From the NCBI GenBank assembly GCA_965113315.1, contig OZ220372.1: a stretch of 64,000 bases of DNA. One strand, written 5' to 3'. The stretch comes from Podarcis vaucheri (lineage: Eukaryota). Positions 1,331 to 9,267 of the stretch are shown one piece after another (position 1 is the stretch's first letter; every line of letters starts with the position of its first letter). Position numbers and translations under genes: made by a program. The notes beneath the pieces are model-generated. The model ran no database searches. It saw only the letters and a program-made list of their open reading frames with translations, and was not told the origin of the DNA.

Positions 1331-1456
1331 AATCAATACTGAACATTGCTAACAACCTAATGAACAACCTAACCTGTGAGCCAGACACTTGTGTGTACAT
1401 CAGTTTTACTGCAGCAACCATGGAAATATTTTTGGGGTGCTTCTCTTGGCTTAGAT

Positions 1457-2992
1457 CAGTGTTTCCCAACCGGTGTTCCGCGGCACACTAGTGTGCCGCC
1501 GGACGTTGCCTGGTGTGCCGTGGGAGGGAGGCGGGCGACTCGGGCTAATCCTCCGACGAGCTCCACCTCCAGACCCATTCCTCAAATCCTTTAACCCAGG
1601 AAGGCAGGAGGGCGGGGAGGGGGGGGGAGAAAGAGAAAAAAGAAAGGGTGGAAAAAAAGAAGGGGAAGAGAAAATATTTTTTTAAAAAAAGGAAAGAGAG
1701 GGGAAAAAGCGAGGGATGGAGGAAGGGGAAGGGGGAAGAAGATGGGGGGTCTTTGTGTATAAACAGAAGGGGAGGACAATGAAGAGGGGCGGGGCTTGGC
1801 AGGCAGCAGATAACTGGGGAGGGGGACGCGGCTGGCGGCGGCTCAAGGCAGGAAGGGAGGAGCTGCCTCGCGGAGAGTCTTGGGCTGCAGAGATTTCCCG
1901 TTCAGGAGCGCGGGAGGCCACGCCGTGGATGGGAATCTCCTCCTCCTCTTCCTCCTCTTCCTCCTCCTCCTCCAGGAGAGAGGGTGGTCCGCCCCACCGA
2001 GTCGGGCCTGCTCAAGCGTGGGAGCCTATAGTTAGAGCTCAGCTCCTTTTCTTGCCTTCCCCGCCCCCCCACGGAGCACATTTTCCTCCCCCCCAACCCC
2101 CGCATGTAGAATAGAAGCCCTCCAGCCTCCACGGTGCACAAACTCTCCCCTCTGCAACGAAGCGCTTTGTTGCATATCTTTGGTGAGGTTTTTAGGCAGT
2201 CTTGGTGCACCTTAAATCAGCGCTAATTGCGCTTGGACACAGTATTTACTTCTGAGTAGGCCCCCTTCTCCCCCCCCCCCGGTAGCACCTGACGTTGCTA
2301 TTCGTATCATCAGGTTTGTTTGTTGATAATTTAATTGTTTTAAAAGCATCATGCTAAAGAGCTCTCTCCCACCCCCAGACCCTTGGGCAAAACAGAAACA
2401 CACACATACACAAACACAGAGATTGAGCCCTGTAGGTTTTATGAAATGAATGGATTCTGAATGCCTGTTTCAGTGGCTTGTCCGCCTTAGGCTGCTGGGC
2501 CAGACACCTGTTACACGGTGCAGTCCGTAAGCTGTGAGCGCTGCTACCTGCCGCCGAGACCACGTAACGACAGTCTTGAAAGACCTACATTGGCTCCCAG
2601 TACCTTTCCGAGCACAATTCAAAGTGTTGGTGCTGACCTTTAAAGCCCTAAGCGGTTTCGGTCCAGTATACCTGAAGTAGCGTCTCCGCCACCATCGTTC
2701 AGCCCAGACACTGAGATCCAGTGCCAAGGGCCTTCTGGCAATTCCCTCACTGTGAAAAGTGAGGTTACAGGGAACCAGGCAGAGGGCCTTCTCGGTAGTG
2801 GCGCCCGCCCTGTGGAATGCCCTCCCATCAGACATCAAAGAGATAACCATTACCTTCTATGCTGTTACTATTTTTTTTATTTTTTTTTACATAAGTAAAA
2901 AGTGACCTTTCCCCATCTGGCATGGTGGTGTGCCTCGAGATTTTTTTCATGAAACAAGTGTGCCTTTGCCCAAAAAAGGTTGGGAAACACTG
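1457..2992 (+). mobile_element. Non-autonomous hAT (Charlie-like) element with captured cargo (copy A)
   Basis: TIRs CAGTGTTTCCCAACC...GGTTGGGAAACACTG. Perfect 8-bp TSD GCTTAGAT at 1449-1456 and 2993-3000. Arms shared with 7016-8332. Confidence 0.93.
2546..2846 (+). mobile_element. L2 LINE 3' ORF fragment inside hAT copy A
   Basis: Plus frame reads DHVTTVLKDLHWLPVPFRAQFKVLVLTFKAL...RAFSVVAPALWNALPSDIK with stops, which matches the L2 C-terminal LHWLPV and WNxLP motifs. Confidence 0.85.
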
Positions 2993-4159
2993 GCTTAGAT
3001 TTTCCAACTACTGTGATTCAAAGCAATACCTTTTACTGGACCCAAGTTGTTTGGAATAAGGAAAAATCAGGCAAGGATTCCACTATTCCACTATTGCCAT
3101 TTATTTTATTAAGAAGTTCCCTTCCCAGCTATTGATATTTTACACCAGGGCTGATATTTTACACCAGTGTATACAAACACTTGGTTGCCAGCTGAAAGAC
3201 TTAAGTCATATTGGTTGCTTATTACTTTATGAGAAGGCTCAGTTTTTTAGCAGCTTGTTCAATAGTTCCTGATTCAGATTGCTCACTGCAGAGTTCACTG
3301 TTTGACTTTTCTTTCACTCAGTCTGTATAGAGTTCTGTACCAGAATATTTTCTTTCTCTGAAATTGGTCGGCAAGAGTTCCTGCTCCGACCTTTGTTTGG
3401 AAGGGAGGAACTTTAGTTGTACCACCAGGTCTGCTGATACCTGATCTGTGGCCTGGCTTTCGTGAGGATTCAAGTCCAGCCTTAGCTTCCTGAATTACCA
3501 TATCAAGTAGCAAGGAAGGGACAGAACTAAAGCAGGTGTCATATTGCAGTCACTGGCAGCCATTAAAACATCTGCCTTGCTCTTGTTTTGTACTTTTTTA
3601 TATAATCACACACAGTTCCCTGCAGACTGCTTGAGAATCTATCTAGTGTTCCTGTGAGCTTAAACCACCTGCTTCAAATGACATTTTTGCAAGTTTTAGT
3701 CATTATTGTCTCAGTCTTTCTTCACTGCCCAAAATAAAAACAACTCCCCCCTAAACTAACCTGAACAGAAACCTAGGACTTTTAAAAATAAAAGCAAATA
3801 GTCCCCTCCCCTCTTAAAGGATTTGAGAATGTTGAATCCATTTTCCAAATATGCTAAGATGCTAGACATTTATGAGGGTGGGGTAAGAGAGATGGTTTGG
3901 AAATATTACTGCATGATATTATGTTCTGAAACATAATATGTAACAAATTCTTATTTAGGCATTTTCTGACATGATTTTTTTTTAGGTCTAGCTATTGTTA
4001 TGACTCTTGACCAATAGGTCTTTTGTTAGGCAGATTGCTGGCTAACGATAAAAGATGGCTGTTGATGTTTCATCAATGGGTGCTAATAGTTAGGAGATGG
4101 CCTCCTGATATTTGAAGTAACCTCTATGGGGTTTTTTTGAATGACATACCCCCAATGGA

Positions 4160-4525
4160 GGGGATGTGGGTGGCGCTGTGGTCTAAACCACAGAGCCTAG
4201 GGCTTGCCGATCAGAAGGTCTGATCGGCGGTTTGAATCCCAGCGATGGGGTGAGCCCCCGTTGCTCAGTCCCTGCTCCTGCCAACCTAGCAGTTTGAAAG
4301 CACGCCAAAAAAAAAGTGCAAGTAGATAAATAGGTACCGCTCCAGCAGGAAGGTAAACGGTGTTTCCATGTGCTGCTCTGGTTTGCCAGAAGTGGCTTAG
4401 ACATGCCGGCCACATGACCCAGAAGCTGTACGCCGGCTCCCTTGGCCAATAAAATGAGATGAGCGCCACAACCCCAGAGTCTGCCACAACTGGACCTAAT
4501 GGTCAGGGGTCCCTTTACCTTTACC
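4160..4525 (+). mobile_element. Sauria SINE, full length
   Basis: tRNA-like head GGGAtGtGGGTGGCGCTGTGGTCTAAACC, core GTGCAAGTAGATAAATAGGTACC, (ACCTTT)n tail. TACCCCCAA occurs in both flanks. Confidence 0.9.
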
Positions 4526-5267
4526 CCCAACAGACCTTGCAGAAGGTGTCACCCCCCACAAGGGCTAAGGTTGTGGGTGGGTGGGTGGGTGGGTGGATGA
4601 GAGAGAGAGAACAAGCAGTATTTGCCTTGTAGGACTTTCACATTCATTTATGCTCTGCTTTTAGCTTTGCACATCAAGCAAATGTTACAAAGTTACTGTA
4701 AGTATTCAATGCTCTATTATCCAAAAGAAATTAAACCAATATTGTTGCCCCTGGAACTTTTTACAGCTCAAAAATTGTGAGACATGCAATAGTTTTATGC
4801 TATTACCTTAATTTGTGAAAAGATTTAAACTGAAACTAAGAGCAACATATTGTAAAAAAAATAATACTTATTCAGAAAGCATATGCTTAAAAATGGGATT
4901 CATTACCTTGCAGTTGTGTTCCTTACAACTTTTGTATAAGGTTTAGTACTGTTAACCTGAAGTTTTGTGAAATACAAAAAAGATTAAAAGTCTAGAATCA
5001 GAAATGGAGTAGGAAAAAGGTGTGGCCTTGACTGAGGGGCAGGGAGAAAGCTTTGGAAAGAACAGGGATGTTCCTATGCCATCAAATGGAAGGGCCTGTA
5101 TTTAGGAAGGGTTAGGAAAAAGTGGAGGTGTTTGTAACAGTGGGTGGAAGCAAGCTAGTGCCAGAGGGCTTTCCAGCAGGCTTTGCTTAATGTTGTTAAT
5201 CCTATACTGTACTCTCTTACCTGGGATTACAGTTACTCTTATTAGTTGTTTTGTTTACCAGGGGGCC

Positions 5268-6205
5268 CATAGGCGCCTACTCCATGGGGCCTGAGGGGGC
5301 CCGAGCCCCCTCAAAAATTCGTTTGGGGGGCTCTGCCCCCCCCAATAATCTCGGGCGCCCCTCCATCAGAGCGCCGCCGCCGAGCATCAGCCTTTGTGGC
5401 CTTACCTGCCACGGCGTCCGCTGCACCTTCGTACCTGTAGAAGCACCCGAGCACCAGAAAGAGCGTGAGGAGCCCCATGGTGTCTGCCGCCTCTCCGCGC
5501 GCGAGAGGATCCGCAGCGCAAGACAGGGGATCGCATGCACACGAGCCAAGACACCGCACGAGCCGGGGGGGGACACGGGGGCGCGGTGCAAGCGGGCTCT
5601 ACCCAGGGCAGCAAGCGCGGAGTCCCATCCCTGCTCCCCGCCGCGCCTCCCTCGCCCTGCAAGGCGCCGCGATGCCGAAACCCTCCGGCTGCGCAACAGG
5701 CGCTCACTTCCGGGGAGGGAGCCCTGCTCTCCCCGCCTCCCTCTTCCGCGGGGCGGGCGGCCCCCGCCGAGGCGCCGCTTGGCGCAGAGACAACGGAGTT
5801 TGCTTGGCCGAGGGGCCAGGGCAGCCGTGCCGGTTGCAGCAACCCTCCTTCCCCAAAAGGGCAGCCCGCTTGCTTTGTTGGCATCTCTCGCCGCGCCTGG
5901 GAATGCCGCCGCCTCACCCAAAATGCCAAATGCTTGGAAATTCAGCTCACCTTAAAAAAATTAAAAAGGATTGCCTGCTTCAAGAGCGTGGAGGGGAATA
6001 ACTAACCCGCAAGCCACTGGGGTGGGAAGGGGGAAATGCAGCCTTGCATTAGGGAAAGAAAATCTTTAAAGAAAAACTTTAAAGAAAAAAAATCTTTAAA
6101 GAAAAACTTTAAAACTCACTAATTTTCATCTAAAATTTAGAAAACTTCCTGGGGCAGGACCCCGGTATGGACCCCCCCAATATTTTTTATAAGTCGGCGC
6201 CCCTG
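5268..6205. mobile_element. Non-autonomous TIR element (probably hAT) with captured CpG-island/first-exon cargo
   Basis: Imperfect TIRs CATAGGCGCCTACT / AGTCGGCGCCCCTG. Flanks CCAGGGGGCC and CCAGGGGCC form an imperfect TSD. The interior is GC-rich within AT-rich surroundings. Confidence 0.75.
5406..5478 (-). pseudogene. Captured first coding exon encoding a signal peptide (donor gene not identified)
   Basis: Strong Kozak context GACACCATGG, peptide MGLLTLFLVLGCFYRYEGAADAVA, then a phase-1 donor G|GTAAGG. GC-rich 5' region with an ETS-type CACTTCCGG at 5705-5713. Confidence 0.6.
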
Positions 6206-7015
6206 CCAGGGGCCCAGTGTTTCTGTGTTATCAACACATATCCTCCTATATGAGTAAATATGTTTCCGTAATATGATCTGTTACTTCAGAAGCATTTTTA
6301 TTTGCATGCAGCACACTTTAAAAACACACACAGATGTCCTGACTAGAGGCAGTGTGACTCTAAAAGTTAAAGAACATAAGCAAAAGCTACTTAGCACCCC
6401 CAACACACACTAACATTTTAAGCTGTTTGTAACAACTTAAACAAACTTCCTTGATTGGATTTATGCTAATGGATCTCCTGTAGGCATTTCTAATTCATTT
6501 ACATTTAATTTTAAGGTTGCCTCTGTTGTGTTTCCAATTCAAACTAATACCATTAACAGATAAAATGAAAGTGTGTAACAGGTCAGAAGCCACAAGATGG
6601 CAATAGTTGAAGAGCAATTTGCTTCAAGAAGGAGTTGGATTGTAGATACTACAGTGAGATTACTCCTACTATGTTATTTATATAGTGCCCATCATCTGTA
6701 GCTAGAAAGGCACTTTATGTAATTAAATATAATTTTATTTTCTGTACTGATGGGAAAAGGAGGAAATGGAGGTGAAGGGATCTATCAAAGGTGTGTGGCA
6801 GAGCAATGCATAGCACACATATCTCCTTGCAGAGAAGAATATTGGACCAAATATGGTGGATTGAGAAACCCAAATTTTAGGTCCCTTCATGTCCCTATTT
6901 TGAACACAAAGTTACTTCTGTGACAGTTCCAAGAAGTACAAAACAGGAAATGGGTATCTAGTGGATGTTTGTATGTTAAAAAGTCTTTAAGGGGCCATCA
7001 AATGGATGTTTAGAT

Positions 7016-8332
7016 CAGTGTTTCCCAACAGGTGTCCCGCGGCACACTAGTGTGTCGCGAGACGTTGCCTGGTGTGCCGTGGGAGGGAGGCGAGCGAGTC
7101 GGGCGGCGAGAGGCGGGGCGGCGGCAGCAAGGAGAGGCCGCCCAGCGCGGGGCTCTCGCCGTCTGCCTGCCTGGCTGCCTGCGTGGCGCTGACGTCACGG
7201 GGCTGTAACGTGCCCCACATAGGCACACACGGGGCGGCGAGCGAGCTCCCTCCCACATCCCATCGCCGGCTCTGCACCAGGCGGTAGAGCTCGGCGAAGT
7301 CGCCGCGCTGGAAGGCCAGCAGCGCGCGCGCCTTGCCCTGGCTCTCGCCCGCCTGCGCCTCCAGGCACGGCGCCTCGGCGTCGGGCGGCAGCGAGCCCAG
7401 GAAGCGGCCCAGCCGGCCGGGGTCGCCCGCCTGCAGCAGCGCCTCGCACACGCACGAGACCTGCTCCGCCGAGAAGCGCGGCGAGCGCGGAGGATCGGGC
7501 GCGGCGGAGGCCAGCCCCGCGCTTGGAGAGGACGCAGCAGCCGTCGCCAAACCCGATCCTCCTCCTCCTGCTCCGCCGCCGTCCTCTGGCTCTCGGCCGG
7601 GAGGAGCCTGCGGCGATGGGGCGGGCGCCAAAGTTGGCAGAAGTTGGCGCGCCTCCTCGGCAGCGCCTTCGTCCTCCTCCTCCTGCCTCTGCTCTCCTCC
7701 GGCGGCGGGGGCGCGCTGCCCTCCCCGGCCGGGGGGCTCGGTGGGGCCTGCGGGGAAGGAGGCCATGTTCGCGGCGCGCGGGATCACGGCCCCCCTCGCC
7801 CGCCTCCGGTCCGCTCCCCTCCCCCTGCGCGCTGCCCTAGCCGTGCGGGTCTCCTCCCCCTGCGCCGCCGTCCCCTTTCCACATCCTAGGAGCCGCGGTC
7901 CGCCTTCCGCCCCCGGGCCGCGGCGCGGCTCCCAGCCTGGGCTGGCCTCCGCCTCCTGGGACGCGCGCCCACCCCCGCGGCCCCCCAAACTTCGGAGCAA
8001 CTCTCCAGACGCTTCTCCCCCGCCTCGGTCTCCCTCCTTTCCACTTCTCTTCCCCCCTTCCTTCCCTCTTTCTTTCTCTTTCTCTCCCACCCGCCTTTCC
8101 TTCTATTAACTTTCCTTTCCCCTTCCCATGTAGAACAGTCCCTGCAAATAAAAACCTAGCATATTTGAAAGAGGGATGCTAGCCTAACCATTACCTTCTA
8201 TGCTGTTACTATTTTTTTATTTTTTTTTACATAAGTAAAAAGTGACCTTTCCCCATCTGGCATGGTGGTGTGCCTCGAGATTTTTTTCATGAAACAAGTG
8301 TGCCTTTGCCCAAAAAAGGTTGGGAAACACTG
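7016..8332 (+). mobile_element. Non-autonomous hAT (Charlie-like) element with captured SIX5 fragment (copy B)
   Basis: Same TIRs as copy A. Perfect 8-bp TSD GTTTAGAT at 7008-7015 and 8333-8340. Confidence 0.93.
7266..7766 (-). pseudogene. SIX5: Transposon-captured SIX5 exon-1 fragment (N-terminus plus N-terminal half of the SIX domain, no homeodomain)
   Basis: MASFPAGP...EEEDEGAAEEARQLLPTL...RFSAEQVSCVCEALLQAGDPGRLGRFLGSLPP...KARALLAFQRGDFAELYRLVQSR parallels SIX5 as I recall it (MATLPAEP...EEEARQLLQTL...RFSPEQVACVCEALLQAG...RARALVAFQRGEYAELYRLLESR). Similarity stops abruptly at about 7266. Confidence 0.88.
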
Positions 8333-9267
8333 GTTTAGATACTATCTCCAATAAAAGGGTTATATATAATGTGGTGGAGTTGTGCTGAAGTCCATATGTT
8401 TTGGAAACTAGTGATTACAGAGAGCTGTACACTTAGAAGTATAAATGTGATTGCAGACCCTAAACTATGTATTTTGTCATTTTCTTTTTAATAAATGTAA
8501 TGCAGTTTTTCTATGGAAACAGTTAATTATATATATTCTGGTAGCTGCACAATTAGTAATCACTCAGTGCTGGAAAGGCACTTCATGTTATATCCTTGAT
8601 AACTGGTTCAAGGAAGTTATGTTCATTGCTATCTCAAATTGACATGTAATCTTTGTGTGCCATTAGGTGATGCTGATGCTTCTGATCTCACCTCTGTTTG
8701 GAGGTTATATTTAATAACAGTCACATGGGTGGCAAATCCCTTCAAAATATTATTTTATTTGGCAGTGTCTGTAAACAGGAAAGCCTTTCTCCTCCCCCCA
8801 TTTCCTTCACTGTATAATGTGTTTGTATTCTTATGCCCCATTTATAATTTCAGAATTTCCATTCAGTTCTTCCCTTGGATGGTTTTCCTAAAATACTTAC
8901 AGTTGAAAGAGAGTGGGGAACAAGATGAAGTCAAGAAAACAGAGACAGACTGTGCACCTATTCAGCCACATGTGCATAGGCATAGAGTTGGCATTGCCTA
9001 ATTAAAGCCATTTGCTGCCAAAAAGGCAAGATGGAGCAAAGCCACCTAACATCACATATTACCTAAGGATAGTAATTTATGCAGAAGAGTGTTGCTGATT
9101 ATCTTAATTGGTACTGAGTTAATAGCTATATAAGAGAACTACACCTTGGGCAATTGCTAACTGTAATGGTTTGAAGATGTGCTTATCATCAACACAAGTG
9201 CAGTGATTATGCGCTCAGGCAAACTTTCAGTTTTGTTAAGCTCTTACATGTCTTACTGCCATGGCTT

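What the first reader, a model, noticed from the sequence alone, without database searches (positions are those of the whole stretch)
5268..6205. A second TIR family carries a complete signal-peptide first exon with promoter and splice donor
Seen: between imperfect TIRs lies a CpG island. On the minus strand it holds an ETS-type site, a GC-rich leader, a Kozak ATG (5478), a 24-residue hydrophobic signal-like peptide and an intact phase-1 donor GTAAGG (5405). Known: a signal-peptide exon ending in phase 1 is the standard first module of many secreted and membrane protein genes. Inference: this is a portable promoter plus secretion-signal module, and 5'-end capture is not limited to one family. 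The TSD is imperfect, so the boundaries are less certain than for copies A and B.
Basis: partly seen in the sequence, partly recalled or inferred. Interest (0 to 1): 0.72.

Follow-up and report, generated by a model that had tools for sequence, protein, structure and literature searches.

The report
Lizard transposon carrying TM7SF3 gene start
A small jumping DNA element in a wall-lizard-type genome carries a copy of the start of the gene TM7SF3 (likely promoter, first coding exon and splice site) at 15 places, where the copies look like they are decaying; this is a known kind of gene-fragment capture, with the twist that this copy was likely re-copied from the source gene later.

Summary
Observation confirmed. 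Window 5268-6205 is a non-autonomous hAT-type element; cargo 5383-6065 is the 5' end of TM7SF3. The TIR-less source lies 1.46 Mb away on the same contig; two RNA-type runs splice the source exon to TM7SF3 exon 2. G000 holds 15 cargo-bearing copies on 12 contigs; 10 of 11 with both ends have perfect, distinct 8-bp TSDs, only this copy's being imperfect. Its ends are nevertheless exact: two related organisms show the empty site. A working promoter-plus-secretion module is not supported: 6 of 15 copies lost the exon or its frame, the other copies show CpG decay (71/1269 against 0/113 at the source), and splicing into SEPHS1 exon 2 would stop after codon 25. Twist: this copy has the family's derived short frame yet source-type alleles at 12 markers, including a 21/22-bp deletion, so its cargo was likely overwritten from TM7SF3 a second time. 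It is a new member of the multicopy Pack-TIRs (PMC8277862). This scan noted similar hAT captures on other DNA (CENPW, HCN1, TPR, DNAH10; unchecked).

The parts
5258..5267 (.). Left copy of the flanking duplication (10 bp, 9/10 match to the right copy)
   Evidence: empty-site joints skipping 948 bases in X7 and X9
5268..5382 (+). Left arm of the parent hAT-type MITE, with 14-bp imperfect TIR at 5268-5281
   Evidence: matches the cargo-free 340-510-bp elements, query 1-115
5383..6065 (-). Captured TM7SF3 5' end: upstream CpG island, leader, coding exon 1 and 23 nt of intron 1
   Evidence: 94% over 686 columns to the TIR-less locus L013, C29:4750807-4751471; gene named
5383..5405 (-). Intron-1 stub with donor GTAAGG at 5405-5400
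   Evidence: the matching donor at the source is the one spliced to exon 2 in X16 and X17
5406..5478 (-). TM7SF3 coding exon 1 copy, 73 nt, phase 1, hydrophobic N-terminal half (predicted signal peptide)
5706..5713 (-). ETS-type site CCGGAAGT (motif name recalled; binding untested)
   Evidence: intact in 8 of 15 copies; also at the source
5545..6052 (.). Stretch with source-type alleles, inferred to have been overwritten from a later TM7SF3 allele; 5904-6001 may be an unconverted patch
   Evidence: outgroup states
6066..6100 (+). AT-rich filler and tandem duplication at the derived short-form junction
   Evidence: shared with L002-L006 and L008, single in L007/L009/L010, absent from long forms L011/L015
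6101..6205 (+). Right arm from an L078-type parent MITE, with TIR at 6192-6205
   Evidence: query 834-938 matches cargo-free elements
6206..6215 (.). Right copy of the flanking duplication; equals the empty-site sequence

Best explanation
This is one of 15 copies of a non-autonomous hAT-type element that carries the 5' end of TM7SF3; it was likely moved by a transposase supplied from elsewhere, is likely a silent, decaying passenger, and this copy's cargo was likely overwritten a second time from the source gene. Steps: (1) about 0.8 kb of the TM7SF3 CpG island, from inside a small upstream MITE to 23 nt into intron 1, was written into a 509-bp parent MITE in place of 3 bases (structure shown by long forms L011/L015; template switching during repair or replication is inferred). 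(2) A rearrangement with a second parent subfamily trimmed the cargo and gave the 938-956-bp short form (structure shown). (3) Cut-and-paste transposition spread it (shown by distinct 8-bp TSDs). (4) One short-form copy landed between a BEN-domain gene and SEPHS1, at a site that is empty in two related organisms (shown). (5) Ectopic gene conversion or gap repair from the TM7SF3 allele 1.46 Mb away replaced most of its cargo (inferred). (6) Germline methylation silences and erodes the copies (inferred from CpG decay).
For: Source without TIRs, with a full TM7SF3 exon series downstream; source exon spliced to exon 2 in X16 and X17. 17 of 17 scored internal matches = source + 15 copies, one split in two. 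Perfect distinct 8-bp TSDs in 10 of 11 copies with both ends. Empty sites in X7 and X9; the insertion is present in X1 and X2. Long forms, parents and junctions. Second transfer: the window copy has the short-form junction and AT duplication, yet equals the source at 12 of 23 typed markers. At 5777, 5868 and 5880 it has the G of long form L011 and the source, where short forms and L015 have T. At 5572-76, 5625, 5641, the 21/22-bp deletion, 5831 and 6015 organism E RNA contigs carry the family state, so window and source share derived states. Source-versus-family changes are 15 A/T-to-G/C against 1 reverse and none of the source-private ones is a CpG loss, which points to the source as their origin. 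Decay: CpG transitions 71/1269 in 11 other copies against 0/113 at the source, p=0.003; exon changes 10 non-synonymous to 5 synonymous against 151:56 possible; 4 frameshifted and 2 deleted exons.
Against: The window copy's own CpG decay is weak: 4/120 against 5/560 non-CpG, p=0.057, and only 1/84 in 5545-6065. That fits a recent overwrite but equally an unmethylated, active promoter. 9 of 15 copies keep an intact exon and donor. 10:5 is too few changes to exclude selection. Clustering of source-type and family-type sites is marginal (runs test p=0.049 after hand curation; p=0.11 uncurated). Orthology of the organism E contigs is inferred from splicing, private differences and the extra GCC, and long-form copies also reach beyond 6065, so some could be Pack copies. 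At 5743 and 5777 organism E RNA sides with the source, and 5545, 5624 and 6052 are not polarised by RNA. No microhomology at the two original junctions. No autonomous transposase was sought.
Confidence: 0.78

Rival explanations
1. This copy works as a relocated promoter and alternative first exon, most likely for SEPHS1, adding a 25-codon upstream ORF rather than a signal peptide.
For: Same strand as SEPHS1, 8.6 kb upstream of its putative exon-1 donor and 11.4 kb from the exon-2 acceptor. Exon, Kozak, donor and ETS site intact; only 1 CpG transition in 84 sites of the promoter part. Tan et al. report transcribed, chimeric Pack-TIRs.
Against: The join to the best exon-2 acceptor reads a stop right after codon 25, so no secreted fusion. 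Seven AATAAA/ATTAAA hexamers lie on this strand between the donor and the window start. Family-wide CpG decay. The insertion is absent in organisms D and E.
Confidence: 0.1
2. The window copy is the founder or earliest branch of the family, left near the source after a local capture, and its closeness to the source simply reflects age.
For: Closest copy to the source (23/662 differences against 27-42), same contig, basal in the tree with the other copies at bootstrap 100. Tan et al. used this logic for Ssk-FB4.
Against: It carries the derived short frame, whereas the long forms L011/L015 keep more source DNA and family alleles. It shares derived alleles and a deletion with the present source. 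The short form exists in organism D, where this site is empty.
Confidence: 0.08
3. The source-like alleles are an assembly chimera between the source locus and a family copy.
For: The two loci are 94% alike and lie on one contig.
Against: 9 window-private substitutions. Run X1 has contigs identical to the window at 5490-5604 and 5575-5685 at about single-copy depth, and identical flanks, though X1 may be the assembly's own sample.
Confidence: 0.03
4. It is the native first exon of a resident gene with chance TIR-like flanks.
For: Upstream of SEPHS1 on the same strand.
Against: Separate source locus, 15 copies, TSDs, empty sites. SEPHS1 has its own CpG island about 3-4 kb left of the window.
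Confidence: 0.01

Closest known systems
Multicopy Pack-TIRs of animals, e.g. Pack-hAT-N8_XT of Xenopus tropicalis with 291 bp of the CAPSL 5' UTR (Tan et al. 2021, PMC8277862; read: parts 1-2 of the text, section 9, search passages; supplements not read)
   Same: Non-autonomous hAT carrying a gene's 5' end, parent locus identifiable, distinct TSDs, no TE left at the empty orthologous site.
   Different: 15 copies against 3. Cargo 0.68-0.85 kb with upstream island, whole coding exon 1 and donor, against a median of 224 bp. Long-to-short remodelling with a second parent. Apparent second transfer from the source; 'gene conversion' does not occur in that paper's main text.
HelibatN3 and other bat Helitrons (Thomas et al. 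2014, PMC4224331; search passages only)
   Same: Capture and amplification of promoter, 5' UTR, first exon and part of intron 1, with a 5'-end bias. One NUBPL-carrying copy fuses with a host transcript and introduces a premature stop.
   Different: Rolling-circle elements without TIRs or TSDs; copy numbers in the thousands.
Non-autonomous hAT families of Anolis carolinensis (Novick et al., PMC3014272; abstract and search passages)
   Same: Squamate hATs with 8-bp TSDs, short TIRs, inter-element recombination and filler DNA.
   Different: The filler described in the passages seen is mostly other TEs. This TIR is not among those seen in the table rows shown. The left end CATAG does not fit the YARNG motif; the right end does.
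Rice Pack-MULEs (as summarised in PMC8277862; PMC5861414 seen as listing and two passages)
   Same: TIR elements carrying gene fragments, often multicopy; a preference for GC-rich 5' ends is recalled, not read here.
   Different: Different superfamily (MULE: long TIRs, 9-10-bp TSDs); plants.

Membership tests
hAT superfamily, non-autonomous | 8-bp target-site duplication | tested here: met
   10 of 11 copies with both ends; the window copy is the exception
hAT superfamily, non-autonomous | Short terminal inverted repeats | tested here: met
   14 bp, 12/14 in L002, 11/14 in the window copy
hAT superfamily, non-autonomous | Terminal motif YARNG (PMC3014272) | tested here: inconclusive
   right end CAGGG fits, left end CATAG does not
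hAT superfamily, non-autonomous | Autonomous partner with matching TIRs and a hAT transposase | not tested
   no search made; superfamily assignment rests on TSD and TIR only
Multicopy Pack-TIR (Tan et al. 2021) | Non-TE host sequence between TIR-TE arms | tested here: met
   arms match cargo-free elements; cargo matches TM7SF3
Multicopy Pack-TIR (Tan et al. 2021) | Parental copy identified, without TIRs | tested here: met
   L013
Multicopy Pack-TIR (Tan et al. 2021) | Several copies with distinct TSDs | tested here: met
   15 copies on 12 contigs
Multicopy Pack-TIR (Tan et al. 2021) | No cargo-free TE at the orthologous site in relatives | tested here: met
   whole element plus one duplication skipped in X7 and X9; tested for this copy only
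Multicopy Pack-TIR (Tan et al. 2021) | Microhomology at a breakpoint (common, 67.6%, not required) | tested here: not met
   none seen at the two long-form junctions
Functional signal-peptide exon donor | Cleavable signal peptide | not testable with these tools
   no SignalP; a hydrophobic N-terminus is seen in most TM7SF3 orthologues printed
Functional signal-peptide exon donor | In-frame join to a downstream host exon | tested here: not met
   SEPHS1 exon-2 join stops after codon 25; the other 14 sites were not examined
Functional signal-peptide exon donor | Transcription and splicing from a copy | tested here: inconclusive
   no RNA run of an organism shown to carry this insertion was listed

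The most novel reading that the evidence does not exclude
Wall-lizard hAT MITEs of several families run a Pack-MULE-like regime that spreads CpG-island promoters with whole first exons. Copies near their source stay in sequence exchange with it, which resets methylation damage and keeps this copy active as a lineage-specific upstream promoter and uORF exon of SEPHS1.
Probability: 0.1. Interest if true: 0.72.

Novelty: new member of a known kind. Interest (0 to 1): 0.45.

Why it matters
Multicopy Pack-TIRs were rare in a survey of 100 animal genomes (4 cases, PMC8277862). Here one 7-kb stretch holds three cargo-bearing hAT-type elements of two TIR types, with 15, at least 40 and at least 40 copies, so lacertids may be a good vertebrate system for studying promoter capture. 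This family preserves its history: parent, long form, short form, empty sites. The window copy also warns that 'closest to the parent gene' need not mean 'founder', because a copy can apparently be re-templated from its source. Its position upstream of SEPHS1, present in some organisms and absent in others, gives a direct test of whether a moved promoter fires. No function is shown.

Tried and rejected
Run search: no RNA holder listed; five guessed-RNA runs, all organism E, where this site is empty. X16 and X17 (3 and 2 contigs laid) showed only the TM7SF3 exon-2 partner at the donor; contigs drop rare forms, so this is no evidence on chimeric transcripts. Pfam found nothing for the 24-residue peptide. 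Copy B was first scanned in a wrong frame (blanks that mean nothing) and then correctly. A homologue search for the BEN exon returned nothing because my E-value cut-off was too strict; Pfam then gave BEN. The gene's last exon was not found, so the name BEND7 is recalled from synteny, and whether the element is intergenic or in a long 3' region is open. The founder reading suggested by the tree was dropped. Sites 5564, 5570 and 5571 (G-run alignment) and 5712 were dropped or merged before the curated runs test; four indel markers and 6061 were added. L012/17, L015 and L016 were left out of the tree and CpG counts (11 of 14 other copies used). Window-private alleles also seen in organism E (5605, 5655) were not used, because they recur in other copies. 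Look-ups of earlier findings by place and by sequence were blank. Literature searches listed no report of a TM7SF3 capture or a Podarcis Pack-TIR; only listings were seen except for the four papers opened, and the supplements of PMC8277862, which list all 370 cases, were not read.

Full report
Observation. On the minus strand there is a Kozak ATG at 5478, a 73-nt exon, a phase-1 donor GTAAGG at 5405 and CCGGAAGT at 5706-5713, inside a CpG island between imperfect 14-bp TIRs. The peptide is hydrophobic only in its first half; SignalP could not be run.

It is a transposon family. A search of the own genome gave many near-full-length matches at 89-94% and a large family of shorter elements sharing only the ends (40 of 2071 candidates scored). 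The internal part alone gave 17 matches of 17 candidates: one source locus and 15 copies on 12 contigs, one of them split by a 1.6-kb insert. Of 11 copies with both ends, 10 have perfect, mutually distinct 8-bp TSDs; the window copy is the exception. L010 has a damaged left end, and L003, L014 and L016 lack the right end. Runs X7 (organism D) and X9 (organism E) join the flanks across 948 bases, while X1 (A) and X2 (B) carry the insertion junction. The ends are therefore exact, and the duplication here is 10 bp with one mismatch or 8 bp plus two bases. 8-bp TSDs and short TIRs point to hAT (PMC3014272); no autonomous partner was sought.

The source. L013 (C29:4,750,807-4,751,471; 1.46 Mb from the window) matches only 5383-6065 and has no element ends. 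Its last exon is 100% identical to TM7SF3 of Podarcis muralis and P. lilfordi. P0002 maps in ten pieces downstream, beginning with the homologous N-terminal peptide, and the next piece starts at 4,738,594. In two guessed-RNA runs the exon ends at the same donor and continues with letters that read as exon 2. The cargo is thus a genuine first coding exon with its island. 'Promoter' is inferred from position, CpG content and the ETS-type site.

History of the family. L011 and L015 are longer: they keep about 130 more bases of source DNA, ending inside a 90-bp MITE upstream of TM7SF3, then continue in the 509-bp parent L080, of which only 3 bases are replaced. No microhomology is seen. The 938-956-bp form has a new right junction, a short filler and the right arm of an L078-type parent; a duplication of the AT-rich junction is shared by the window copy, L002-L006 and L008. 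The short form already exists in organism D (loose end at L013:2165).

The twist. The window copy is the closest to the source (23 of 662 sites against 27-42) and basal in a tree, which first suggested a founder. It cannot simply be one. It has the derived short frame, yet equals the source at 12 of 23 typed markers between 5545 and 6052, including a 21/22-bp deletion. At 5777, 5868 and 5880 it has the G of L011 and the source, where short forms and L015 have T (the truncated L014 also has G at 5880). At 5572-76, 5625, 5641, the deletion, 5831 and 6015, organism E RNA contigs show the family state, making window and source share derived states; at 5743 and 5777 they side with the source. Source-versus-family changes are 15 A/T-to-G/C against 1 reverse. 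The source region is also more diverged from D (9/224 in its intron flank) than the window flanks are (14/1142), so these alleles likely arose at the unmethylated source island. The simplest reading is a second transfer, source to copy, by ectopic conversion or templated repair. Whether there was one tract or two is open: the runs test gives p=0.049 curated and 0.11 raw, and the window keeps the family's 3-bp GCC loss at 5904. Orthology of the E contigs is inferred, and a more distant outgroup is needed.

Does it work? In 11 of the 14 other copies, CpG transitions are 71/1269 against 51/6167 other changes (p=6e-25), while the source has 0/113; this implies germline methylation of the copies (inference). 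The exon is intact in 9 of 15 copies, frameshifted in 4 and deleted in 2. Point changes are 10 non-synonymous to 5 synonymous against 151:56 possible, with no sign of selection but little power. The window copy lies on the minus strand between a BEN-domain gene and SEPHS1, 8.6 kb upstream of the putative SEPHS1 exon-1 donor. A splice to the best exon-2 acceptor, 76 nt before the SEPHS1 ATG, stops after codon 25, so it would give a uORF and not a secreted fusion. Two much weaker AG sites nearer the ATG would be in frame. Against silence: this copy has only 1 CpG transition in 84 sites over 5545-6065 (family rate 5.2%, P=0.06), which fits a recent overwrite or an active island. Expression is untested.

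More than one family. Neighbours A (1451-3000) and B (7010-8340) have a different TIR and 8-bp TSDs (13 of 13 loci printed) and at least 40 copies each. B's ORF has a SIX1_SD domain. A's cargo was not identified.

Comparison and verdict. This meets the tested features of a multicopy Pack-TIR (PMC8277862). Capture of promoter plus first exon is known from bat Helitrons (PMC4224331). Earlier, unchecked notes of this scan describe like cases on other DNA. Six literature searches listed no report of this family; supplements were not read. New member of a known kind, well documented, with a likely second transfer from the source gene as its unusual feature. Interest 0.45.

Noticed in passing
window 7010-8340: Element B (other TIR type, 8-bp TSD) carries a SIX-family gene start: ORF 7766-7233 on the minus strand with Pfam SIX1_SD; at least 40 copies at 95-98%. 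SIX5-like by recall only; source locus not located.
   Followed up: partly
window 1451-3000: Element A, same TIR type as B, at least 40 copies at 95-98%; cargo looks like a promoter/5' UTR plus a LINE-like piece; source gene not identified.
   Followed up: partly
window 1451-8340: Three cargo-bearing TIR elements within 7 kb, just upstream of the SEPHS1 CpG island; may reflect a target preference for the open chromatin near promoters. Untested.
   Followed up: no
L013:1210-2300: The TM7SF3 promoter and intron-1 region differs from organisms D and E by about 4-5%, against about 1-3% in the window flanks, with a strong A/T-to-G/C bias and several deletions (17, 21/22 and about 26 bp); suggests GC-biased gene conversion at this island.
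   Followed up: partly
L013:2246-2335: A 90-bp MITE with its own TIRs sits just upstream of the TM7SF3 island; the original capture breakpoint falls inside it.
   Followed up: partly
L015 and L016: Both lack the same ~180 bp including exon 1; the same joint is in run X7 (5386 to 5567), so an exon-less subfamily predates the split from organism D. L015 also has a ~0.7-kb insert in its left arm.
   Followed up: partly
L078-L083, L019: Cargo-free elements with the same ends have at least two different GC-rich interiors (343-368 bp and 440-509 bp); these interiors may themselves be older captures.
   Followed up: no
window 21866-50007, minus strand: Exons of a BEN-domain gene (BEND7 by recalled synteny with SEPHS1); last exon not found.
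   Followed up: partly
window 5406-5478 against P0002, P0003, P0005: Copies keep Tyr14 and Phe7 as in Zootoca and Lacerta, where the present source has Ser and Ile; source and copies share Ala20 where these three proteins have Glu.
   Followed up: partly
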